Source: Narcine bancroftii
Taxonomy: Eukaryota
Reading direction: 5' to 3'
Assembly (NCBI RefSeq): GCF_036971445.1
Contig: NC_091478.1
Span: forward strand, 91,822,001-91,886,000
DNA: 64,000 bases
Positions 632-64,000 of this stretch are shown here, piece after piece. Position 1 is the stretch's first letter; every line of letters begins with the position of its first letter. The position numbers were made by a program, and so were the translations under genes. The notes beneath the pieces were generated by a model. That model was not told the DNA's origin. It searched no databases and saw nothing but the letters and a program-made list of their open reading frames with translations.

Positions 632-690
632 CTTCTTCTTCTTCTTCTCTTCTTTGGCTTGGCTTCGCGGACGAAGATTTATGGAGGGGT
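632..690 (-). mobile_element. RTE-clade LINE, extreme 3' end with (GAA)n tail
   Basis: tttggcttggcttcgcggacgaagatttatggagggg is identical to copies at about 739, 3972 and 46738; preceded by (ctt)n, the GAA microsatellite tail on the minus strand. Confidence 0.75.
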
Positions 691-732
691 AAAAAAAAAC
701 CTGCCACAATTGATCTCCTTTAAAACATATCT

Positions 733-1083
733 ATCTTCTTTGGCTTGGCTTCGCGGACGAAGATTTATGGAGGGGGTAAAAAGTCCACGTCAGCTGCAGG
801 CTCGTTTGTGGCTGACAAGTCCGATGCGGGACAGGCAGACACGGTTGCAGCGGTTGCAGGGGAAAATTGGTTGGTTGGGGTTGTGTGTTGGGTTTTTCCT
901 CCTTTGCCTTTTGTCAGTGAGGTGGGCTCTGCGGTCTTCTTCAAAGGAGGTTGCTGCCCGCCAAACTGTGAGGCGCCAAGATGCACGGTTTGAGGCGTTA
1001 TCAGCCCACTGGCGGTGGTCAATGTGGCAGGCACCAAGAGATTTCTTTAGGCAGTCCTTGTACCTTTTCTTTGGTGCACCTCT
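733..1083 (-). mobile_element. 5'-truncated young RTE-clade LINE (ORF C-terminus plus 3' UTR)
   Basis: Open frame RGAPKKRYKDCLKKSL...W...ASNRASWR...CNRCNRVCLSRIGLVSHKRACS* matches the typical RTE C-terminus with a CxxC..H..C motif. Confidence 0.85.
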
Positions 1084-1776: not shown

Positions 1777-2230
1777 GGACAGGTGGCACAGTTAAAGAGG
1801 GATGGCACAGTTAACGAGTGGTGGCATGGTTAGCAGAGGGATGGCACAGTTCATGGGGGCACGGCACGGTTAACAGAGGGATGGCACAGTTAATGGGACA
1901 GCATGGTTGGAAGAGGGATGGCAGTTCATGGGGCACAGTTCATGGAGGGATGGCCTGTTAACTGGGGCAGCACAGTTAGTAGAGGGACGGCATGATTAAC
2001 AGAGGGGCAGCACGGTAAATGGGGGCAGAGCTCGCTGAGGCTAACAGAAGGGTGGCACGTTCAACGGGGGCAGCAAGGTTAGCAGAGGGCAGCACAGTGA
2101 GTGGAGGGTTCAGCCAATAGTGACTCCAGGTTCAAATCCGGAGCTGCCTGTCTGGAGTGTTTGTGGTGTCCTCCCACCCTTCGAAAGGTTGGAGGTTCTA
2201 ATAGAGCGGCAGGGGCTCGTGGGTTGAAAC
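1777..2230 (+). repeat. Degenerate tandem repeat (ggcacagttaacagagggat-like) running into a tRNA-derived V-SINE remnant
   Basis: More than 10 imperfect ggcac(a/g)gtt units at 1777-2100, then B-box ggttcaaatcc and ggagtgtttg...ctccc as in the SINE copies at 18.4 and 39.3 kb. Confidence 0.6.
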
Positions 2231-2383
2231 GTGCATCGCACGTGGGCCACAAGAGCAGCGGAGCCGTGGCCCCGAGTCGGGGATTAACCGGGGGGATTCC
2301 GCTCCGGGGAGAGAACCGAGAGGAAGCTCGTGATTGTCCCAGCGCATTCCTCACCCTGTCAGGCCGGTTTCCCACCCACCCCA

Positions 2384-2630
2384 CTTCATACTTACAGACA
2401 GAGACAAGCCCCCCCCCCACCCCTTCATGCTTACAGACACAAAACCCTCCCCCCACCCCCTTCATACTTACAGAGACAAGCCCCCCCCACCCCCTTCATA
2501 CTTACAGACAGAGACAAGCCCCCCCCTTCATACTTAGACACAGAGACAAGCCCCCACCCCCTTCATGCTTACAGACACAGAGACAAGCCCCCCCCCCACC
2601 CCCTTCATACTTACAGACACAGAGACAAGC
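2384..2630 (-). repeat. Minisatellite, 7 units of about 32-42 bp, derived from the SLC7A5 exon1/intron1 junction
   Basis: Unit on minus strand is GCTTGTCTCTG(TG)TCT|GTAAG(T/C)ATGAAGGGGGTGGGG; units start near 2384, 2423, 2460, 2494, 2526, 2561 and 2603 on +. Confidence 0.95.
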
Positions 2631-3185
2631 CACCAGTTTGGCGGCGTCTTCGGGCACGGCGCAGTTGGGGAAGGCGGGCTTGAGGATGTACGTGGCGAAG
2701 ACCAAGGCCACGATGTACTGCGAGCTGGGCCGAATGATGAGCAGCTCGATCCAGAGTTTGAGGAAAGCCGTGGCCGAGCCGTACACCTCCAGGATGTACG
2801 CGTAGTCGCCGCCCGACTTCATGATGGTGGTGCCCAGCTCGGCGTAGCACAGCGCGCCGATGGTGGAGAAGACGCCGCAGACGGTCCAGATGATGAGCGA
2901 GAAGCCCACCGAGCCGGCCTCCTGCACCACGCCGGTGGGGGTGACGAAGATGCCCGAGCCGATGATGGTCCCCACGATGATGGCCACCCCGTTCCTCAGC
3001 GTGATGGTCCGCTTCAGGGTCATGTCGGTTGCTTGGCCCGGATCTGCGGCTGGGTCCCGGCTCGGGCTCGGGCTCGTCCCCGGCTCCCCATTCGCGCTGC
3101 CCGTCAACATCCTCTCCTTCACCTGCTCATCGTCCGGCGCCACCTCCTGCGCTGAACCCGAGCCCCGCTTCTTCAAACTCGACAT
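2615..3185 (-). CDS. SLC7A5: L-type amino acid transporter 1 (LAT1), coding exon 1 (190 codons + 1 nt)
   Basis: MSSLKKR...[31 protein letters not shown]...[27 protein letters not shown]...[34 protein letters not shown]...[10 protein letters not shown] closely matches LAT1. Ends at a phase-1 T|GTAAGT donor at the same place as mammalian exon 1. Neighbour CA5 supports orthology. Confidence 0.96.
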
Positions 3186-3700
3186 GGGGGTCGCCGATTC
3201 CGTCTCCGATGCTCCGTGGGCTGGAGAGGCGTCGCCGATGCTCGGTGGTCGCTCCCTGCTCTCGCCCGTCTGCAACTGGCCACGACCTGCTTGTTCCCAC
3301 CTTCAAAAGCCAGATCGGGCCAAGTTGAGCCCCCTTGGAGTCCTCCTCCCTCTCACCGTCATTCAGAGCCCGGAACTCGCGATGATGCAACACTTGGGCC
3401 GATCAATCAGCGCGTGGCTGCGGGGTCGCTCCATTCACAATCGCGGCTCCCACCACGTGCTCTCAAAGTTGCCACAAATGTTACCTTTTGGAGATGGCAT
3501 TCACTTCTGCCAATGGGTCGTCGGGTTTGAGAATGCAGGCGGTATATTCAGCTGTAGAATACAGACCGGGGTTGGTGGAGGAGGAGGGGGGGAACATATG
3601 GGAAATAGCATGTCGTGAACAATAAACAGAAATGCACGTTATTATGTTCTGATGAAAGCCCATTGCATCATCCAACCAAAGAGCCTCCTTACTGCAAATC
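3186..3700 (-). promoter_or_regulatory. SLC7A5 CpG-rich 5' UTR/promoter with candidate C/EBP-ATF (ATF4) elements and an E-box
   Basis: CpG-dense from about 2640 to 3560; TGATGCAA 3383-3390, CACGTG 3454-3459, ATTGCATCA 3662-3670. TSS not determinable. Confidence 0.7.
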
Positions 3701-3971
3701 CACTGTCACGAAGAATTGGACAGCGAACCGTTTTTATTCAACATGTCAAAAGAACGCCTGACGTTTCTAATTTTCTCTCTCTACCTTTTTAAAATGTACT
3801 ATTTCAAGACAAGGTGAAGAACTCCGAATTACAATTACAGCATCTGCACACTTCCTTGAGGAGCTGCAGAAATGCAAGCATGTTCCTCAATTGGGTTTCA
3901 GTTCTTCGTGGCGTCACGAGGCAAAAATGCCCTCTGCTCATCCCCATTCCATGGATACCATCAGACTTGAC

Positions 3972-4108
3972 TTTGGCTTGGCTTCGCGGACGAAGATTTA
4001 TGGAGGGGGTAAAAGTCCACGTCAGCTGCAGGCTCGTTTGTGGCTGACAAGTCCGATGCGGGACAGGCAGACACGGTTGCAGCGGCTGCAGGGGAAAATT
4101 GGTTGGTT
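3972..4108 (-). mobile_element. 5'-truncated RTE LINE 3' fragment
   Basis: Near-identical to 739-876. Confidence 0.85.
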
Positions 4109-4204
4109 AGAGATCCAACATGGATACCACCAGAGATACAACTAGAAAAATGCCCTCTGCTCATCCCCATTCCATGGATACCACCAGAGATCCAACATGG
4201 ATAC

Positions 4205-4777: not shown

Positions 4778-5279
4778 GATACCACCAGAGATGCAACTAG
4801 AAAAATGCCCTCTGCTCATCCCCATTCCATGGATACCACCAGAGATACAACTAGAAAAATGCCCTCTGCTCATCCCCATTCCATGGATACCACCAGTGAT
4901 ACAACTAGAAAAATGCCCTCTGCTCATCCCTATTCCATGGATACCACCAGAGATACAACTAGAAAAATGCCCTCTGCTCATCCCCATTCCTTGGATACCA
5001 CCAGAGATCCAACATGGTTACCACCAGAGATACAACTAGAAAAATGCCCTCTGCTCATCCCCATTCCATGGATACCACCAGAGATACAACTAGAAAATGC
5101 CCTCTGCTCATCCCCATTCTATGGATACCACCAGAGATACAACATGGATACCACCAGAGATCTAACTAGGAAGTTAGTCTTGACCCCTGCTAGATGAATC
5201 CTAACCAAGTCTCTGAAATAGGAATGAGCAGAGGGCATTTTTGCCTCGTGATGCCATGCGAAGAACTGAAACCCAAGTT

Positions 5280-5499: not shown

Positions 5500-8400
5500 A
5501 GGATTATTGTGTATTATTAATGTATGGTAATTTCCTCTAATCTTCGTCAATATGTAGCTGAGAAAAATGGTGAGAGAGCTAGATGAGGAAGAAGGAAACT
5601 TACAGAAGGCCTTAGAAAGCAAAATACAAGAAGGGCTCATGAGAATTATCCAGTAGCCAGGAAAGAATTTAAGAAAGAACTTAAAGGAAACAGAAGAAGG
5701 TCTTGGCAAGTAGGATAAAGGAAAACCCTAAGGCATTTAAGGGAAGAACAAAAGGCTGATGAGCAAGGCTGCTCAAGAATAAAGGAGGAAACATGCCTGG
5801 AGGCAGAGGAGGTCCCAGATAAATATTTTGCTTCAGTGTTCACTAGAAGGATCTTGGCTAATGTGAGGTGAGTACAGCTTATGTTCTGGATTTCATTAAT
5901 TATATTGATTTAAGAAAGAGGAAGTGCTGGATCTTTTTATAATTTTTTTATTTAATACTTCACCATGAACCATGTTAATAACAATAAATACAAATATTCA
6001 TCATTAAACATTCATCATTAAACTTCCTCCCACCCTCTATAACTTAAAGCAAGAAATAAAAGAAAGAAAAATAAATAAACAGTAGAAGAACACAAAAGGA
6101 AGAAAAAAAAATTGTGTCGTCCAAAATTTCATATCTAAATATTTTCGTACTTGCATCTTATCACTTTCAGAGATGAGGTCTGAAATTTGCAGTTACTAAT
6201 ATACTCTATGTATGATTCCCAAATTTGTTCAAATAAAGTATATTTGTCTTTTAGATTGTAGGTAATTTTTTTCTAATAGACCATTGTTGTATTTTTAAGG
6301 TTGCTTCCGTTTTCCAAGTTATCATGATGCATTTTTTTGCTGCTGCGAGTGTGATCATAATAAATCTTTTTTGAGTCCTGTCTAATTTTAGGCCTCATTC
6401 TTTGTCTTTTATGCTGTTTAACAGGAAGATTTTGGGATCTTTTGATATCCTATTTTTTGTAATTCTATTTAATATTAGGTTTAAATCCTCCCAAAAAGTT
6501 TGCACTTTTGTACATGTCAAAATTACATGTAATGTCCTAATTTCTTGTTTACAATGGAAGAATTTGTCCGACATTGTTGGATTCCATTCTTTTAACTTTT
6601 GAGGTGTTACATACCTTAAACCCATTAAACAATGTCATCACACAATGAAAATGAACAAGAAATTTGTGTCTTCTACTTTTACATACTGGGTCAGTTCATT
6701 TCATCTTCTTCTCCTTCGGTCATTTTAGGCAGTGGAGGTCCGCCGTAGGACTTCTCTGTTGTGTCCCATGTACGGTTCCCAAATTTGTTCAAATACTGTG
6801 ATGTTATTTCTTCAATTATATGTTATTTTTTCCAATGGAATACATTTATTCTTTTCTATGTACCATTGCTGTACTCTCAGGCTTTCTTCTGATTTCCAGG
6901 TTGACATAATACATTTGTTTTGCTACAGCTAAGGCTATCATAATAAATCTTTTTTGTGCTCCATCCAAATCGAGTCCAAGTTCTTTACTTCTTATATTAC
7001 TTAGAAGAAAGCTCTCTGGATTTTTTGGTATGTTGCTTTTTGTGATTTTATTTAATACCTGGTTTAGATCTTCCCAAAATTTTTCCACTTTCTCACATGC
7101 CCAAATTGCATGTACTGTTGTTCCTGTTTCCTTCTTACAACAAAAACATCTGCTTGATAATGTTGGGTGAAATACATTAATCTTGATGCAGTTTACTCTC
7201 CCTATTAGTTAATGGTAAATCTTTCCATTTCTCTAAATCTTCCTGCATTTTTTTTAAATTAATGGTTGGTAGTTTAATTTATACAAATGATTTAAATTAT
7301 TATCTATTCTTGATACCAAGGTAACATATGGCCTGTGATAGCCATTTAAAAGGGGATTCCTTTTTACATTTTGTATAATTGACTTTGTTCATTGGCATCA
7401 CTTCACTTTTATCAATATTAACTTGCTACCTTGATATCGTCCCATATTCTTCCAATTTTGTATATAACCTTTTTATTGATTTATCTGGGACTGTTAAATA
7501 TACCATAATATCTTCCACAAATAAGCTCATTTTAAATTCTTCCTCTTTGACTTTTATTCCCTTTATTGCAGGTTACGGAAGTGCTGGATCTTGATATGTC
7601 TCTAGGTCGGATGAGATAGAACCCAGGTTACTATAGGAAGTGAGGGTAAAGATTCCTGGAGCTTTGGCAATGATCTTTGTGTCCTCCATGCCACAGGGGC
7701 GGTACCGGCGGATTGGAGAATAGCAAATGCGGTCACCTTGTTTAAAAAAGGTAATAAGGAGAATCCTGGGAATTATAGACCGGTGAGTCTTATGACAGTG
7801 GTGGGCAAACTATTGGAGAGGATTCTAAGGGTCAGGATTTTCAAGCATTTAGAGAAGTGTTGTCTTCTCAGGGATAGTCAGCATGGCTTTGTAAGTGGAA
7901 AAGGTTGTGCCTCATAAACCTAATTGAAGTTTTTGAGTAAGTACGAAAGAAATTGATGAAGGTAGGGCAGTAGATGTGTATATGGATTTTAGTAAGGCAT
8001 TTGACAAGGTTCCCTTTAGTGGACTCATTCATAAAGTCATGGGATCCATGGAACCTTTGCTACGTGGATTCAGAATTGGCTTTCCTGCAGGAAGCATAGG
8101 GTAGTAGTAGATGGAATGTATTCTGCCAGGAAGTTAATGACTAGTGGAATTCCACAATGCCCTGCACTTTCTGATTTTTATAAATGACCTGGATGAAGTA
8201 GTAGTGGGATGGGTTGGTAAATTTGCAGATGACATGAAGGTTGGAGGTGTTGTGGATAGTATAGAAGGTTGTCATTGGTTACAATGGAACATAGACAGGA
8301 TGCAGAGTTGGATGAAGAAGTAGCAGATGGAGTTCAATCTGTATAAGTGTTAAGTGATGCATTTTGAAAGGTCAAACTTGAAGACAGAGTTCATGATTAA

Positions 8401-26479: not shown

Positions 26480-28250
26480 GAGGTTGCTTTGGCAGACAAT
26501 GTGAAGATAAATCCTAAGGGATTCAACAAGTATATTAAGAGTAAAAGGATAGCAAGGGACAAAATTGGTCCCCTCAAAGATCAAAGTGGTGGACTATGTA
26601 TGGAGCTAAGAAATAGGGAGAATCTTAATTCCCCCCCCCCCCCCCCCACCACCACCCCAAACAGTATTCACTCAGGAAACTAGCACAAGAGTTGAGGGAA
26701 GTAAGGAAAACAAGCAGTGAGGTCATGGAATGTACACAGATTAAAGAGGAGGTGCCTGCTGTCTTAAAGCAAATAAGGGTGATAAATCCCCAGGGGGTGA
26801 AAAGATATCCCCTCAGACTTTGAAGGAGGATAAAGCAGAAATTGCAAGGGCCCTGGCAGAAATATTTAAAATGTCCTTCACCACGGGTGGATTGGAGGGT
26901 AGCTCATGTTGTTTTGTTTAAAAAAAGCTCCAAAAGTAACCCTGGAAATTATAGGCCAGCGAGCCTGATGACAATCATAGGTAAATTATTATAAGGTGTT
27001 CCAAGAGATCAGATCAGACATACAAGTATTTGGATAGCCAGGGACTCTTAGGGATAGTCAACATGGCCTTGTGCATGGTAGGTCATGCTTAACCAATCTT
27101 AGTTTTTTTTTTTAAAAGAGTGTTACCAGTAGAGTTGACTTAGGAAAGGCTGTGGATGTTGTCTACAAGGACCTTTGACAAGGTCCCACATGGTAGGTTA
27201 GTCAGGAAGATTCAGATGCTCAGAACTGGATTTGACAATCTTTAAATGGGAGAAGCAAGAGCAGTGGTGGATGATTGCTTTTCAGACTGGAGGCCAGTGA
27301 CTAGTGGTGTGCCTCAAGGATCGGTGCTGAGACCACTGCTGTTTGTCATCTATATCTGGATAATAATGTGATAAATAGGATCAGCAGGTTTGCAGATGAC
27401 ACTAAGATTGGAGGCATTGTAGACAGCAAAGGAGGTTTTCAAAGCTTGCAGAGGGATCTGGACCATTTAGAAAAATGGGCTGGAAAAAAATGGCAGATAA
27501 AATTTAATTCAGACAAGTGTAAGGTGTTGCATTTTGGAAGGACAAACCAAAAAAGGACATACACGGTAAATGGTTGGGGAACTGAGGAGTGTGGTAGAAC
27601 AGAGGGATCTGGGAATACAGATATACAATTCCCTGAAAGTGGTGTCACAGGTAGATAGGGTTGTGAAGAGACCTTTTGGCATATTGGCCTTCATAAATCA
27701 AAGTACTGAGCACAGGAATTGGGATGTTATGGTAAAGTTGTACAAGAAATTGGTGAGGCCAAATTTGGAGTATTGTGTGCAGTTTTGGTCACCTAACGAC
27801 AGGAAAGATATCAATAAGAGAGAGTACAGAGAAGATTTACTGGGATTTTGCCTGGTCTTCAGGAACCGAGTTACAGGGAAAGGTTAAACAAGTTAGGATT
27901 TTATTCCCTGGAACGTAGAAGAATGAGGGGAGGTTTGATAGAGGTATTTAAAATTATGAGGGGCATAGACAGAGTAAATGTAGATAGGCTTTTTTTCCAC
28001 TGAGGGTAGGTAAGATACAAACTAGAGGACATGGTTAAAGGTGAAAAGGGAAAGGTTTAGGGGGAACATAAGGGGAACTTCTTCAGAGAGTGGTGGGAAT
28101 GTGGAATGAGCTGAAGTGGTGAATGTGGGCTCAATTTTAAACATTGAAGAATTTGGACAGGTACATGGATAGGAGAGGTATGGAGGGGTATGGACTGGGT
28201 GCAAGTCAGTGGGACTAGGCAGAAAAATGGTTCTGCACAGACTAGAAGGG
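26480..28250 (+). mobile_element. Decayed CR1 LINE in CA5 intron 5
   Basis: [32 protein letters not shown] and RPNLEYCVQFWSP motifs, then 3' UTR. Confidence 0.92.
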
Positions 28251-50670: not shown

Positions 50671-50676
50671 GTAGAA

Positions 50677-51750
50677 GGGGAATGGGGGGGGGGTTAATGG
50701 GGAAGGGTGGAAGGAGAAGGGGGAATGGGGGAAATGGGGAAGGGGAATGGGAGAAGAGGGGAAGGGGGCGAATGGAGAAGGGTGGAAGGAGAAGGGGGGA
50801 ATGGGGAAGGGTGGAAGGAGAATGAGGGAAGGAGAAGGGGGGAATGGGGAAGGGGAGAAGGAGGGAAGGGGAAGGAGAAGGGCGGAATGGGGAAGGGTGG
50901 AAGGAGAAGGGGGGAATGGGGAAGGAGGGAAGCAGAAGGGGGGAATGGGGAAGGGTGGAAGGAGAAGGAGGGAAGGGGAAGGAGAAGGGCGGAATGGGGA
51001 AGGGTGGAAGGAGAAGGGGGGGAATGGGGAAGGGGGAAGGAGAAGGAGGGAAGGAGAAGGGGGAATGGGGAAGGGTGGAAGGAGAATGAGGGAAGGAGAA
51101 GGGGGGAATGGGGAAGGGTGGAAGGAGAAGGAGGGAAGGAGAAGGGGGGAATGGGGAAGGGTGGAAGGAGAAGGAGGGAAGGGGAAGGAGAAGGGCGGAA
51201 TGGGGAAGGGTGGAAGGAGAAGGAGGGAAGGAGAAGGGGGGAATGGGGAAGGAGGGAAGGAGAAGGGGGGAATGGGGAAGGGTGGAAGGAGAAGGAGGGA
51301 AGGGGAAGGAGAAGGGGGGAATGGGGAAGGGTGGAAGGAGAAGGAGGGAAGGGGGGAAATGGGGGAAAAGAGGGGAAGGGGCAAATGGAGAAGGGTGGAA
51401 GGAGAAGGGGGAATGGGGAAGGGTGGAAGTAGAAGGAGGGAATGGGGGAAATGAGGAAGGGGGAATGGGAGAAGAGAGGAAGGGGCGAATGGGGAAGTGT
51501 GGAAGGAGGGAATGGGGAAATGGGAGAAGAGGGGAAGGGGGAATGGGAGAAGAGGGGAAGGGGGAAATGGGAGAAGAGGGGAAGGGGGAATGGGAGAAGA
51601 GGGGAAGGGGGAATGGGAGAAGAGGGGAAGGGGGAATGGGAGAAGAGGGGAAGGGGAATGGGAGAAGAGGGGAAGGGGGAATGGGAGAAGTGGGGAAGGG
51701 GGAATGGAAGAAGAGGGGAAGGGGGAATGGGAGAAGAGGGCGGGGGGGGG
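50677..51750 (+). repeat. About 1.07-kb purine-rich low-complexity tandem array
   Basis: Units such as GGGGAATGGGGAAGGGTGGAAGGAGAAG and GGGGGAATGGGAGAAGAGGGGAA; almost no C on the + strand. Confidence 0.97.
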
Positions 51751-55659: not shown

Positions 55660-58120
55660 TCAGATTATGGGATTTCAGATGTCTGGTGTTTTATCCTACT
55701 AACAATATTCTTTCTTTTCTCATGTTCATCAAATTTGAGTATTGATTACTTTTTTAAATTGATAATTAATTCCATTAACTTATTCTTGTGAATGCCACAT
55801 TATTGTAATATCTGATCATGCCCCTGCTGCATTATCATTGAATTTTCCTCAAGCTAAAAGACACTGGTGCTTTAATTCAGTATCCTTATCAGATAAGGAC
55901 TTTGTTAAATTTATGAAAGAACAGATAGTTTTCTTTGATACAAATGTCTTTTTGAAGACTTCTACTTTAGCTATATGGGATACTTTGAAGGCCTTAGGGG
56001 GCAAATTATTTTGTATATAGTTAATAAAAAAGGAAGATCTGAGTTAATTAAGCAATATGTTCAAACTAAATATTAAGAAGTGTACAAAAAAACAGATTGA
56101 ATTTAAAACTAAATTTAATCTTTTCTCACATATCCAGTCGAATGCCAACTTCTGAAGTCTAAAAATCAATTTTGCATTCATGGTGATAAATCGAGTCAGT
56201 TTTTGGCTAACAAATTGAGAGGATTTGGTGCTAAGTGGCACATTACAAAGGTTCGTAAAGATAATGGTATTATGACTTCAGATCATTCTGACATAAATGA
56301 TACATTTAAAATATTCTATTCCCAACTATATTCCTCTGCATGTACAGGTGACAATAATTTGAAGAAGCATTTTCTAGACCAATTGAATATCCCCAAGATT
56401 TCTTCAGATTGTCAAATTAGACTGGATGGATCTGTCTTGCAAGAGGAAATAATGGTTGCTATTCATTACAATCAGGAAAGGATCCTGGACCTGATGGGTT
56501 TCCTGTGGAATCTTTCAAATTATTATCTCAATTGCTCACACCTTTGAGTGTGGTATTTGCAAATTCATTTAAACAGGGTAAACTTCCAGATTTATTTATC
56601 GAGGCTTGCATATTTTTGATTGCAATGAAAGGTAAAGACACAACCGAATGTTCTTCCTACAGACCAATTTCTTTACTGAATGTTGATGCTAAACTTTTAG
56701 CCAATAGGATGGAAAACATTCTACCATCAGTTATTTTTGAAGATCAGATGAGTTTATTAAAAACTGTTATTCTTCTTTTAATATACATCACTTAATGAAT
56801 ATTTCATGTTTATCCTCTGGGAAAACTCCTGAGTGTATTCTTTCATTCGATGAAGAAAAACCTTATGCTCAAATAGAATGGGCATACCTGTTTACACCTC
56901 TTGAAAAATTTAATTTTGGTTCTGATTTTATTACATGGGTTAAATTATTGTAATCATACCCATCTGCCATAATTCTTAATAATTTACAACAATCTCAGCC
57001 GTTCAATCTGTAATGTGGCACTCGTCAAGGATGCCTGTTAATTTATTATTTGATCTGGCAATTGAACCATTAGCAATTGCATTTCGTGAGTGCAAGGACA
57101 TTTTGAGGATATGGAGGCAAGGGATCAAACATAAGGCCTCCCTTTATGCGGATGATCTCCAAATTTTCATCTCAGATTCAGTTCCCTCCCTCCCACGTAT
57201 GATGTCATTACATTCACAGTTCAATAAATTTTCAGGATATAAATTGAATTTGCATAAAAGTGAACTTCTGTTGAATTCTACTGCATCAATGTATTTAAAA
57301 AAATGTATTGTTCAAAATCAATTTACCTGTCTTGGTATTACAATCACAAAGAATCAAACAACTTTTTAAGGAGAATTTTCTTGTAGCGTTCAAGCAAGTG
57401 AAGTAATCTATTACTCAATGGTCACCTTTGTCGACAATCTTAGTTGGCTGTATCAATTCTATTAAAATTAATATCTTACCTAAATTTTTATATTTTTTTC
57501 AATCTATTCCAAATTTTGTTCCTAAATCTTTTTTTTACCTGATTCACTATATTGTCTTCCATATGGAAGGGTAAGCACCTTTAATAAAGTTTTTCTTTAG
57601 AGACCTAAGAGAGATGGTGGTTTGGCTCTGCCTAACTTTAGATTTTATTATTGGGCAGTCAATATGCAATGTCTTACGTTTTGGTCTTTTTTTCAATCAT
57701 CCTGACTGCCAATTGTGGGTATCAATGGATTTGAATTCTTCCCCCACCACCCCCAAATTTTTCCAATGTAGCACTTCTTGGCTCTTCACTTCTGCTTTCA
57801 GTTAAGTTAATAGACAATCCCATTGTTAAACATTCTTTGAGAACTTGGGCACAGTTAAGAAAACATTTTATATTTCATAGTTTCTCTTTTAAGCCCTGTT
57901 GTATCTAATCACCTTTTTCCAACATTCTTTGCATGGTTATTTTTCATAAATGGTATAGAGGGAATTCAAAGTTTTAAGGATTTGTTCATTGATGGATACT
58001 TTGCATCATTTGAGCAGCTTTCTGTTAAATTTAACCTGTCCAAACCTCAATTTTTTATATATTTGCAAATCCTGCATTTTCTTGAATCACAGTTTTCTGA
58101 TTTTCCAAGAGAGTCTGAAT
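55660..58120 (+). mobile_element. Decayed L1-like LINE ORF2 (endonuclease + RT)
   Basis: ISDHAP, W.FNS.SL.D, SSYRPISLLNVDAK, GTRQGC, LAIEPLA, LYADD, FSGYKLN and GGLALPN motifs. Confidence 0.9.
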
Positions 58121-62629: not shown

Positions 62630-64000
62630 CCCATCAGGCACAGACATATTTTCTAGGTGCACAGGATAGTGCATTGGCTAAGTGCATTTCTTTTTTGCAC
62701 ATATAAACTAAAGTCAATTTGTATGACTGAAGCCTGACCATTGTTCTCTGTAATCGTGCAGGAGCTGAGTGCATTGGCTTCTTCAGAATTGTGACCAGAG
62801 GTAAGCGGTCAGTCTCTATGGTCATTGGTCTATTATAGATGTATTCATTGAATTTTGTGCATGCAAAAACTAGTGCCAACATCTCCTTTGTTTGGGCGCA
62901 CCTGTTCTCCATGGTTGGTGAGTGACCTGGATGTCTGAGTCTACTGGCCCTTGGTTTTCCGTCTTGCAGGCATGCTGCACCTGGGCTGCACTTTGATGTA
63001 TCTCAGGTTAGCATGACTGGTCTTCATACATTGTAGTATGATAGAACAGGTGGGCATGACATATGCCTTTATCATGCATTGAATTTGTTTTGTTGTCGCT
63101 CGTGTCAGGACCAAGTCAAGTCTTTGTGCATCAGTTGCCTCAGTGAGGCAGTAAGATCACTGGAATTTGGGATGAACTTGACTAGGTAGTTGACCATGCT
63201 CTGGAAATGTAGCACTGTCACGTCTGACGGTACCAGCTTTTCACCAATTGCTCTTGTCTTTGAAGAGTCTGCCTTCAGACCTTCTGTGAAAATGTGGGCT
63301 ACATAACTGATCTGGTTCAGCTGAAATCTGCACTTCTTGGGGTTGAGCTTAAGGTTTACCTTCCAGGCTCTGTTGGGTACCTTTTTTAAATTTGTGCCGT
63401 GTTCTTCCAAGTCCTTGCCACCTATGAGTATGTCATCAACAATGATGGCACTGGTGTATGCCGCAAAGATTTGCTCCATTGATCTTTGAAATACCTTGCT
63501 GGCTGAATTAATTTCAAATTGCATTCGCAGGAATCTGTCTTGGATGAAACTCGTGCTGAATGTGGTCAGCAGTGATGACTTGTAGTCGTTTGATTTGCCA
63601 GAAGGAATTCTTTGCATCCAAGGCCGGGGAAAAAATGGTTGTGCCAGTGATCTGCGCAGCAACTTCCCCAACAGAACACATTGGATGATGTAGTTGTTTT
63701 AAAGCTGTGTGGAGGTCTCTTGGGTTTATGCAGATCTGGATCTCCAGTCCGTTTTTTTTTCTTAACAGCCACCATGGAGGGAATGGTGGATTCAAAGACT
63801 GGGGTAATCATGCCCAGGTCCTACATCCTGTCCAGCTCAGCCATAACCCTGTCCTTCATTGCTACTGGTATATGGTGTGCTGGACAAACTGCAGGCTTCA
63901 CTTCTGGGTCGAGCTGCATGGAGTATGTCACCAGCAGTTTCCCCGGTTCAAAGGTAAAAAGGTCACTACTCAGAAAAGATTCTATGTTGCAAATCATCTT
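62630..64000 (-). mobile_element. Gypsy/Ty3 LTR retrotransposon pol remnant (RT + RNase H), continues beyond the window
   Basis: ICINPRDL, LDAKNSFWQI, FQRSMEQIF, IIVDDILI, LKLNPKKC and KEMLALVFACTKF..YIY...IETD..PL; frameshifted. Confidence 0.9.

What the first reader, a model, noticed from the sequence alone, without database searches (positions are those of the whole stretch)
2384..2630. Minisatellite made of the SLC7A5 exon 1 splice junction: an array of tandem 5' splice donors
Seen: the last about 16 exonic nt (codons ACLCV) plus GTAAGTATGAAG and a G-run are repeated 7 times. GTAAG donors start at 2614 (ancestral), 2572, 2505, 2471, 2434 and 2395; the unit near 2526 lost its GT. The 2572 donor is 42 nt downstream and in frame, so it would add [14 protein letters not shown] within a transmembrane region. 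Further donors would shift frame or include a stop. Established: intronic G-runs enhance nearby donors via hnRNP H/F. Inference: repeat number and G-run length could tune productive versus NMD-targeted splicing of LAT1.
Basis: partly seen in the sequence, partly recalled or inferred. Interest (0 to 1): 0.72.

Follow-up and report, generated by a model that had tools for sequence, protein, structure and literature searches.

The report
Repeated splice donor in ray LAT1
A roughly 37-base piece spanning the end of the first exon of a ray's LAT1 amino-acid transporter gene is repeated seven times, splice signal included; the same layout is known from several human and lancelet genes, and here too the first signal likely does nearly all the work.

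Summary
The array is real: seven units of 32-42 bp (2371-2631, minus strand) grown from the exon 1/intron 1 junction of SLC7A5 (LAT1), with GTAAG donors at 2614, 2572, 2505, 2471, 2434 and 2395 and one unit lacking its GT. DNA contigs match four of the seven units without a difference. The only annotated protein (100% identical, source-named Narcine bancroftii) uses 2614, the position conserved in vertebrates. Three of six copies have damaged donors. No fetched protein has the insert (0 of 280). Direct junction counts were not obtained; RNA word shares (0.69-0.72) do not exclude use of the +42 donor. This is the known kind of human F7, CBS, 6-16, LMNB2 and PDGF donor-spanning minisatellites and lancelet 'mirages', where the first donor usually dominates. 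The scan noted the same layout before on other DNA, including four other genes of this genome (unchecked notes). A regulatory dial is unsupported. Verdict: new member of a known kind, low interest.

The parts
2615..3185 (-). Coding part of SLC7A5/LAT1 exon 1 (571 nt: 190 codons plus the T of Leu191, phase 1)
   Evidence: identical to residues 1-190 of P0002
2371..2631 (-). Minisatellite of 7 units (42, 37, 32, 38, 36, 36, about 34-38 nt): exon end + donor + ATGAAG + G-run
2609..2617 (-). Authentic 5' splice site TCT|GTAAGT (G at 2614); intron 1 is 8,885 nt, acceptor and exon 2 lie outside the window (G000:C22:91815729-91815604)
   Evidence: used by P0002; same position in vertebrate read-through tails
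2567..2575 (-). Copy donor +42, TCT|GTAAGC; in frame, no stop, would add 14 residues mid-helix; weakened at +6
2519..2550 (-). Unit 3, GT deleted (about 2535): no copy donor
2500..2508 (-). Copy donor +109, TCT|GTAAGT; frameshift, stop in exon 2; its bases 2504-2502 form the TAA that ends the read-through frame
2466..2474 (-). Copy donor +143, TCT|GTAAGT; includes the stop
2429..2437 (-). Copy donor +180, TCT|GTAAGC; includes the stop; weakened at +6
2390..2398 (-). Copy donor +219, TCT|GTAAGT; includes the stop; last unit, running into unique intron

Best explanation
This is a minisatellite that copied the exon 1/intron 1 junction of the ray's LAT1 gene six more times into the intron; it is likely a lineage-specific, neutral repeat, and the first donor (2614) likely carries nearly all splicing. 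Shown: the units, their decay, the frame consequences, and that the annotated protein uses 2614. Inferred origin: slippage or unequal exchange at a short GGTGG/G-run similarity between the exon and the intron's G-run made the first duplication, later rounds added units, and G-run and TG/TC slippage changed their lengths. Inferred mechanism of silence: the most upstream of several consecutive donors wins (as shown for human F7), the nearest copy is weaker (+6 C), the next has no GT, and rare use of the far copies would give premature stops that NMD would clear.
For: P0002, the only member of its 90% cluster and named without an isoform suffix, joins ACLCV|LLLTAVNC, i.e. donor 2614. 96 of 101 exon-1 read-through tails of other species begin R/C/S-K/E, the translation of a phase-1 GT(A/G)AG donor at this same place. 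95 of 98 full-length homologues with the motif have the standard spacing across the junction and none of the 3 others resembles the insert; 22 of 120 escaped the regex. 0 of 280 fetched proteins hold the insert motif, and a search aimed at it returned none covering it. Three of six copies have a damaged donor, including the two nearest; computed U1 pairing is -4.3 kcal/mol for the +6 C copies against -7.3 for the others; +6 T>C at a donor lacking -1 pairing cripples human IKBKAP exon 20 (PMC8302731, passages). The four guessed-RNA runs lack at least 27 of 97 sampled words of 2300-3300, as expected if most of the array is spliced out. 5 of 6 copies end in the Val codon GTC of this species, while 16 of 16 other shark/ray-type proteins have Ile there, pointing to a lineage-specific array. 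GGTGG occurs both just upstream of the unit in the exon and in the G-run after the last donor. Precedent: F7, LMNB2, PDGF use only the first donor (PMC1557585); lancelet mirages do not disturb splicing (PMC3087553).
Against: No junction read or contig was seen: 0 contigs of the three guessed-RNA runs were laid. P0002 is a gene model, probably made on this or a very close assembly and helped by homology, so it shows the main form at best. RNA word shares are 0.72, 0.72, 0.72 and 0.69; exon-only predicts 0.676 and exon plus 42 nt predicts 0.719, so three runs sit on the +42 value, although the sampling rule is unknown and the binomial SD is about 0.047. Human 6-16 and CBS use up to two copy donors (introduction of PMC1557585). 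An earlier unchecked scan note reports an array where the last donor is used (e1-9353532). That the two nearest copies are both damaged has a chance probability of about 0.2, so it is no proof of selection.
Confidence: 0.73

Rival explanations
1. Leaky but unregulated: the +42 donor (and perhaps +109) is used at an appreciable level, as in human 6-16 and CBS, giving a minor LAT1 mRNA with 14 extra residues in the fourth membrane helix that is probably misfolded and has no function.
For: RNA word shares of 0.72 in three of four runs equal the value expected with the +42 extension (0.719); the +42 form has no stop and would escape NMD; precedent in the introduction of PMC1557585.
Against: +6 C with no -3..-1 pairing weakens it; no annotated isoform; 0 of 280 proteins with the insert; the word-share difference is within sampling noise.
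Confidence: 0.17
2. One reading: copy number and G-run length set the ratio of productive to NMD-bound LAT1 mRNA, and this is regulated or selected.
For: Four of five copy donors would give premature stops early in the gene; 8 GGG triplets follow 2614 against 0-1 after four other SLC7A5 donors; G4Hunter mean 1.39 over the intronic part.
Against: No isoform evidence; donors decay like the rest of the unit; 0 of 101 read-through tails of other species repeat the exon end in frame, though only 48 are long enough and the shark-like ones stop within 5 residues; G-rich elements between competing donors favour the upstream one in PLP; G4 enrichment at splice sites is absent in zebrafish and frog; no canonical four-tract G4 motif matched.
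Confidence: 0.04
3. The array is kept because it helps the first donor: extra G-runs or extra U1-binding sites strengthen a donor with a poor exonic side (TCT), or the +42 copy serves as a spare.
For: The authentic donor pairs with U1 only on its intron side; F7 copies take over when the first is mutated.
Against: Other vertebrates use the same donor without any sign of an array; the spare would disrupt a helix; G-run function in cartilaginous fish is untested.
Confidence: 0.04
4. Assembly artefact.
For: G-run-rich repeats are error-prone; units 1-3 were not covered by laid contigs; the DNA runs may be the source sample of the assembly.
Against: Four DNA runs hold 1.00 of 97 sampled words; contigs of run X1 cover 2000-2413 and 2387-2523 with no other letter and no gap; the units differ from each other in shared, structured ways.
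Confidence: 0.02

Closest known systems
Human F7 intron 7 37-bp VNTR (Borensztajn et al. 2006, PMC1557585; read: abstract, introduction, results section 6, discussion)
   Same: About 37-bp unit, first unit spans the exon/intron boundary, 5-9 copies, donor sequence repeated in the intron; only the most upstream donor used physiologically.
   Different: F7 units hold 4 exon bases and identical donors; the ray units hold up to 17 exon bases, vary in length by G-run and TG/TC slippage, and 3 of 6 copy donors are damaged. Here it is a first exon. Polymorphism and copy activation are shown for F7, untested here.
Human 6-16 (IFI6) intron 2, CBS intron 13, LMNB2 and PDGF intron 4 minisatellites (seen only as summarised in the introduction of PMC1557585)
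   Same: Donor-spanning minisatellites; 6-16 and CBS use two copy donors besides the authentic one, LMNB2 and PDGF only the authentic one.
   Different: They have 10-25 copies; this has 7. Use of copy donors is unknown here.
Amphioxus 'mirages' in Adh3 and globins BflGb6/BflGb9 (Ebner et al. 2010, PMC3087553; passages read)
   Same: Minisatellite-like duplications of exon-intron boundaries, many but not all units keeping splice signals, no reported interference with normal splicing.
   Different: Different lineage and unit sizes (10-160 bp); length instability shown there, not tested here.
G-rich enhancer between competing donors, PLP/DM20 (PMC1919487; abstract and section 14 read)
   Same: G-runs lie between two possible 5' splice sites.
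   Different: PLP/DM20 is a demonstrated, regulated alternative-donor event in mammals from non-repetitive sequence; nothing of the kind is shown here.

Membership tests
Donor-spanning minisatellite (F7 type / mirage) | Head-to-tail repeat with a unit of tens of bases | tested here: met
   7.1 copies, period 37; units 32-42 nt
Donor-spanning minisatellite (F7 type / mirage) | First unit spans a real exon/intron boundary | tested here: met
   Unit 1 covers 2629-2588 with the donor at 2614; exon 2 and its acceptor found 8,885 nt on
Donor-spanning minisatellite (F7 type / mirage) | Donor sequence reiterated in the intron | tested here: met
   5 of 6 copies keep GTAAG; 3 of 6 keep the full TCT|GTAAGT
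Donor-spanning minisatellite (F7 type / mirage) | Most upstream donor used mainly or only (typical, not universal) | tested here: inconclusive
   Annotated protein uses it; no RNA contig was laid; word shares ambiguous
Donor-spanning minisatellite (F7 type / mirage) | Copy number varies between individuals (VNTR in the strict sense) | not testable with these tools
   All four DNA runs are one sample; no gap seen in the part laid
Donor-spanning minisatellite (F7 type / mirage) | Copy donors are activated when the first is mutated | not testable with these tools
   Needs a minigene
Regulated unproductive splicing (AS-NMD switch by alternative 5' site) | Alternative donor creates a premature stop well upstream of later junctions | tested here: met
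   4 of 5 copy donors, by in-silico frame
Regulated unproductive splicing (AS-NMD switch by alternative 5' site) | The alternative form is seen in RNA | tested here: inconclusive
   No RNA contigs laid; no such protein in 280; contigs and proteins would miss NMD targets
Regulated unproductive splicing (AS-NMD switch by alternative 5' site) | The element is conserved across species | tested here: inconclusive
   0 of 101 read-through tails repeat the exon end in frame, 48 long enough, mostly bony fish and tetrapods; no relative's DNA is held; the copies carry this species' Val codon
Regulated unproductive splicing (AS-NMD switch by alternative 5' site) | Ratio changes with condition or NMD block | not testable with these tools
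   Needs experiments

The most novel reading that the evidence does not exclude
The +42 donor is really used in several tissues (the reading that the 0.72 word shares allow), and length variation of this G-rich array between rays shifts splicing among the normal, the 14-residue-insert and the NMD-bound forms, so that a repeat polymorphism sets the amount of working LAT1 in a cartilaginous fish.
Probability: 0.05. Interest if true: 0.5.

Novelty: new member of a known kind. Interest (0 to 1): 0.14.

Why it matters
As it stands it matters little: one more donor-spanning minisatellite, of a kind described in human and lancelet genes and noted repeatedly by this scan. Its small value is as a natural test of first-donor preference at a first exon in a cartilaginous fish, with strong, weak (+6 C) and dead copies side by side, and as a trap for annotation and read mapping. 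If copy donors proved to be used in proportion to array length, it would be a splice-altering VNTR in a key leucine transporter outside mammals.

Tried and rejected
Laying three guessed-RNA runs (X5, X7, X8) on 2000-2900 gave 0 contigs each; the tool warns that this can be false, so it is no evidence; 3 of the 4 RNA-type holders and 1 of the 4 DNA holders were laid. Protein searches for an RNA-derived form with the insert or a species-own fragment found none; these reach only proteins of set length ranges. A regex look for the exon 1 ends of paralogues in L002-L005 printed nothing; TRF found no junction array in the loci L001-L012 other than this one. Folding of the pre-mRNA gave similar accessibility for all six donors (0.49-0.72 unpaired), so structure does not single out one. 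A canonical G4 regex found no match. A transposon origin of the unit was rejected: the core occurs only here and the DNA search found only paralogue exon matches and one 70% G-rich hit. A micro-exon or new intron made from TAAG acceptors inside the units was considered and not tested. No MaxEntScan or SpliceAI was available; U1 duplex energy is a crude stand-in, with the U1 motif recalled. One search's translations were one base off and were redone. Print searches listed no paper on this array; only top listings were seen, subscription journals are missing, and no supplements were read. A recalled human study of splice-site-containing VNTRs was not found and is not used.

Full report
Observation. 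The window's minus strand holds exon 1 of SLC7A5/LAT1: ATG at 3185, 190 codons, then a phase-1 donor at 2614. The translation matches LAT1 chains of the PDB at E about 1e-73, well ahead of xCT, y+LAT1/2 and LAT2, and is 100% identical to P0002, a 518-residue protein that its source names LAT1 of Narcine bancroftii. TRF finds an array at 2371-2631, period 37, 7.1 copies. The units are 42, 37, 32, 38, 36, 36 and about 34 nt; each is exon end + GTAAG(T/C)ATGAAG + a G-run of 8-16 nt. GTAAG starts at 2614, 2572, 2505, 2471, 2434 and 2395; unit 3 lacks the GT. The unit core has 6 matches in the whole genome, all here, against 1 for the reversed control; 5 of 20,000 Markov simulations trained on the region reach six GTAAG.

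It is not an assembly artefact as far as can be seen. Four DNA runs hold 1.00 of 97 sampled words of 2300-3300, and contigs of run X1 cover 2000-2413 and 2387-2523 with no other letter and no gap, which includes donors 2395, 2434, 2471 and 2505. Units 1-3 were not covered by laid contigs, and these runs are one sample that may be the source of the assembly, so they check the assembly, not the population.

Gene context. Exon 2 (126 nt) lies outside the window at G000:C22:91815729-91815604 behind a normal acceptor; intron 1 is 8,885 nt. With exon 2 in hand, the consequences are: 2614 gives the known protein; 2572 (+42) adds [14 protein letters not shown] with no stop; 2505 (+109) shifts the frame and stops at nt 122 of exon 2; 2471, 2434 and 2395 include the TAA at 2504-2502. 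In an AlphaFold2 model of P0002 (mean pLDDT 64.5) the junction V190|L191 lies inside helix 179-199, the hydropathy peak is centred at 190-193, and 95 of 98 homologues with the motif keep the exact spacing (22 of 120 escaped the regex). A charged, glycine-rich insert there would probably break the fold (inference).

Which donor is used. 2614 is the ancestral site: 96 of 101 exon-1 read-through tails from other species start with R/C/S followed by K/E, the translation of a phase-1 GT(A/G)AG at the same codon. P0002 uses it, is alone in its 90% cluster and carries no isoform suffix, but it is a gene model, probably of this or a very close assembly. No protein among 280 fetched has the insert motif, and a search aimed at the insert region returned none that covers it. 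Direct RNA evidence is missing: none of the contigs of three guessed-RNA runs was laid. The one RNA figure is ambiguous. The four guessed-RNA runs hold 0.72, 0.72, 0.72 and 0.69 of the sampled words. Words wholly in the exon make up 0.676 of the stretch, and 0.719 with the +42 extension. So most of the array is absent from these runs, but three of them sit on the +42 value. The sampling rule is unknown and the binomial SD is about 0.047, so this neither shows nor excludes use of 2572; it is the main reason the leaky rival keeps 0.17.

2572 and 2434 read GTAAGC. All six sites have TCT on the exon side, with no U1 pairing there, so +6 matters: computed U1 duplex energy is -4.3 kcal/mol for these two and -7.3 for the rest (U1 motif recalled). 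Human IKBKAP shows that +6 T>C at a donor lacking -1 pairing impairs U1 recognition (PMC8302731, passages). Thus the nearest copy is weak, the next is dead, and the first full-strength competitor is 109 nt away and out of frame. Three of six copies have damaged donors, alongside indels in the TG/TC part and the G-runs: decay, not preservation. That the two nearest are both damaged has a chance of about 0.2 and proves nothing.

G-runs. Eight GGG follow 2614 against 0-1 after four other SLC7A5 donors (a small sample). In mammalian PLP a G-rich element between two competing donors enhances the upstream one (PMC1919487, abstract and section 14), so if the mammalian rule held, it would favour 2614. 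[quoted passage not shown]

Origin and age (inferred). GGTGG stands in the exon just upstream of the unit and in the G-run after the last donor, a plausible seed for slippage. Five of six copies end in GTCT, with this species' Val codon, while 16 of 16 other shark/ray-type proteins (12 named, 4 unnamed) have Ile: the array arose or was homogenised within this lineage. No relative's DNA is held. As a proxy, 0 of 101 read-through tails repeat the exon end in frame; only 48 are 14 residues or longer, the test sees one frame, and the most shark-like tails stop within 5 residues, so this speaks for bony fish and tetrapods more than for rays.

Known kind. Human F7 has a 37-bp VNTR whose first unit spans the exon 7/intron 7 boundary; only the most upstream donor is used, and the next copy takes over when it is mutated (PMC1557585: abstract, introduction, section 6, discussion). 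Its introduction lists 6-16 and CBS (two copies also used) and LMNB2 and PDGF (authentic only); I did not read those papers. Lancelet 'mirages' are the same layout and reportedly do not disturb splicing (PMC3087553, passages). PMC10078293 and PMC2812944 (passages) show more broadly that tandem repeats at or near junctions can alter splicing in humans. The three structural features of the F7 type are met here; first-donor dominance is indirect; polymorphism is untested. Unchecked notes of this scan report the same layout at ATG4A, LARS1, PRDM15 and CAMTA2 of this genome and in sharks, annelids and an urchin; they are not independent support. Ten paper searches listed nothing on this array; only top listings were seen and no supplements were read.

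Verdict. Observation confirmed; interpretation partly supported in anatomy, unsupported in function. Best explanation: a lineage-specific, probably neutral donor-spanning minisatellite with the first donor dominant (0.73). Rivals: appreciable unregulated use of +42 (0.17), regulated dial (0.04), selected helper of the first donor (0.04), artefact (0.02). New member of a known kind; interest 0.14.

Noticed in passing
window 1784-2020: A second, more decayed minisatellite (period about 20, consensus TGGCACAGTTAACAGAGGGA) lies 350 nt further into intron 1; weaker look-alikes continue to about 2100.
   Followed up: no
window 4778-5143: Young 54/77/53-bp tandem array (96% matches) upstream of the gene; similar pieces at about 3920-3960 and 4110-4200.
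   Followed up: no
window 640-860 and 3970-4110: Copies of one interspersed repeat end (…ctttggcttggcttcgcggacgaagatttatggaggggg…), twice in intron 1 and once upstream of the gene; that it is a LINE/SINE tail is recalled, not tested.
   Followed up: no
window 50674-51740: About 1.07 kb purine-rich GAAGGGG-type repeat that opens long low-complexity ORFs.
   Followed up: no
window 7615-7914, 27305-27655, 56983-57366, 62637-63698: Reverse-transcriptase and RNase H fragments of retroelements; 5 of 87 ORFs scanned had a Pfam hit, none a host gene; 87 of 197 ORFs of 75 aa or more were sent.
   Followed up: partly
window 2616-2618 (codon 190): This species has Val where 16 of 16 other shark/ray-type LAT1 proteins have Ile; the change makes the exon end more TG/TC-repetitive. 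Whether it came before the array or was copied back from it cannot be told.
   Followed up: partly
window 3148-3069 (LAT1 N-terminus): The N-terminal tail holds a short Pro/Ser repeat ([11 protein letters not shown], from CCGAGC-type hexamers near 3060-3080) not seen in the other five proteins printed.
   Followed up: no
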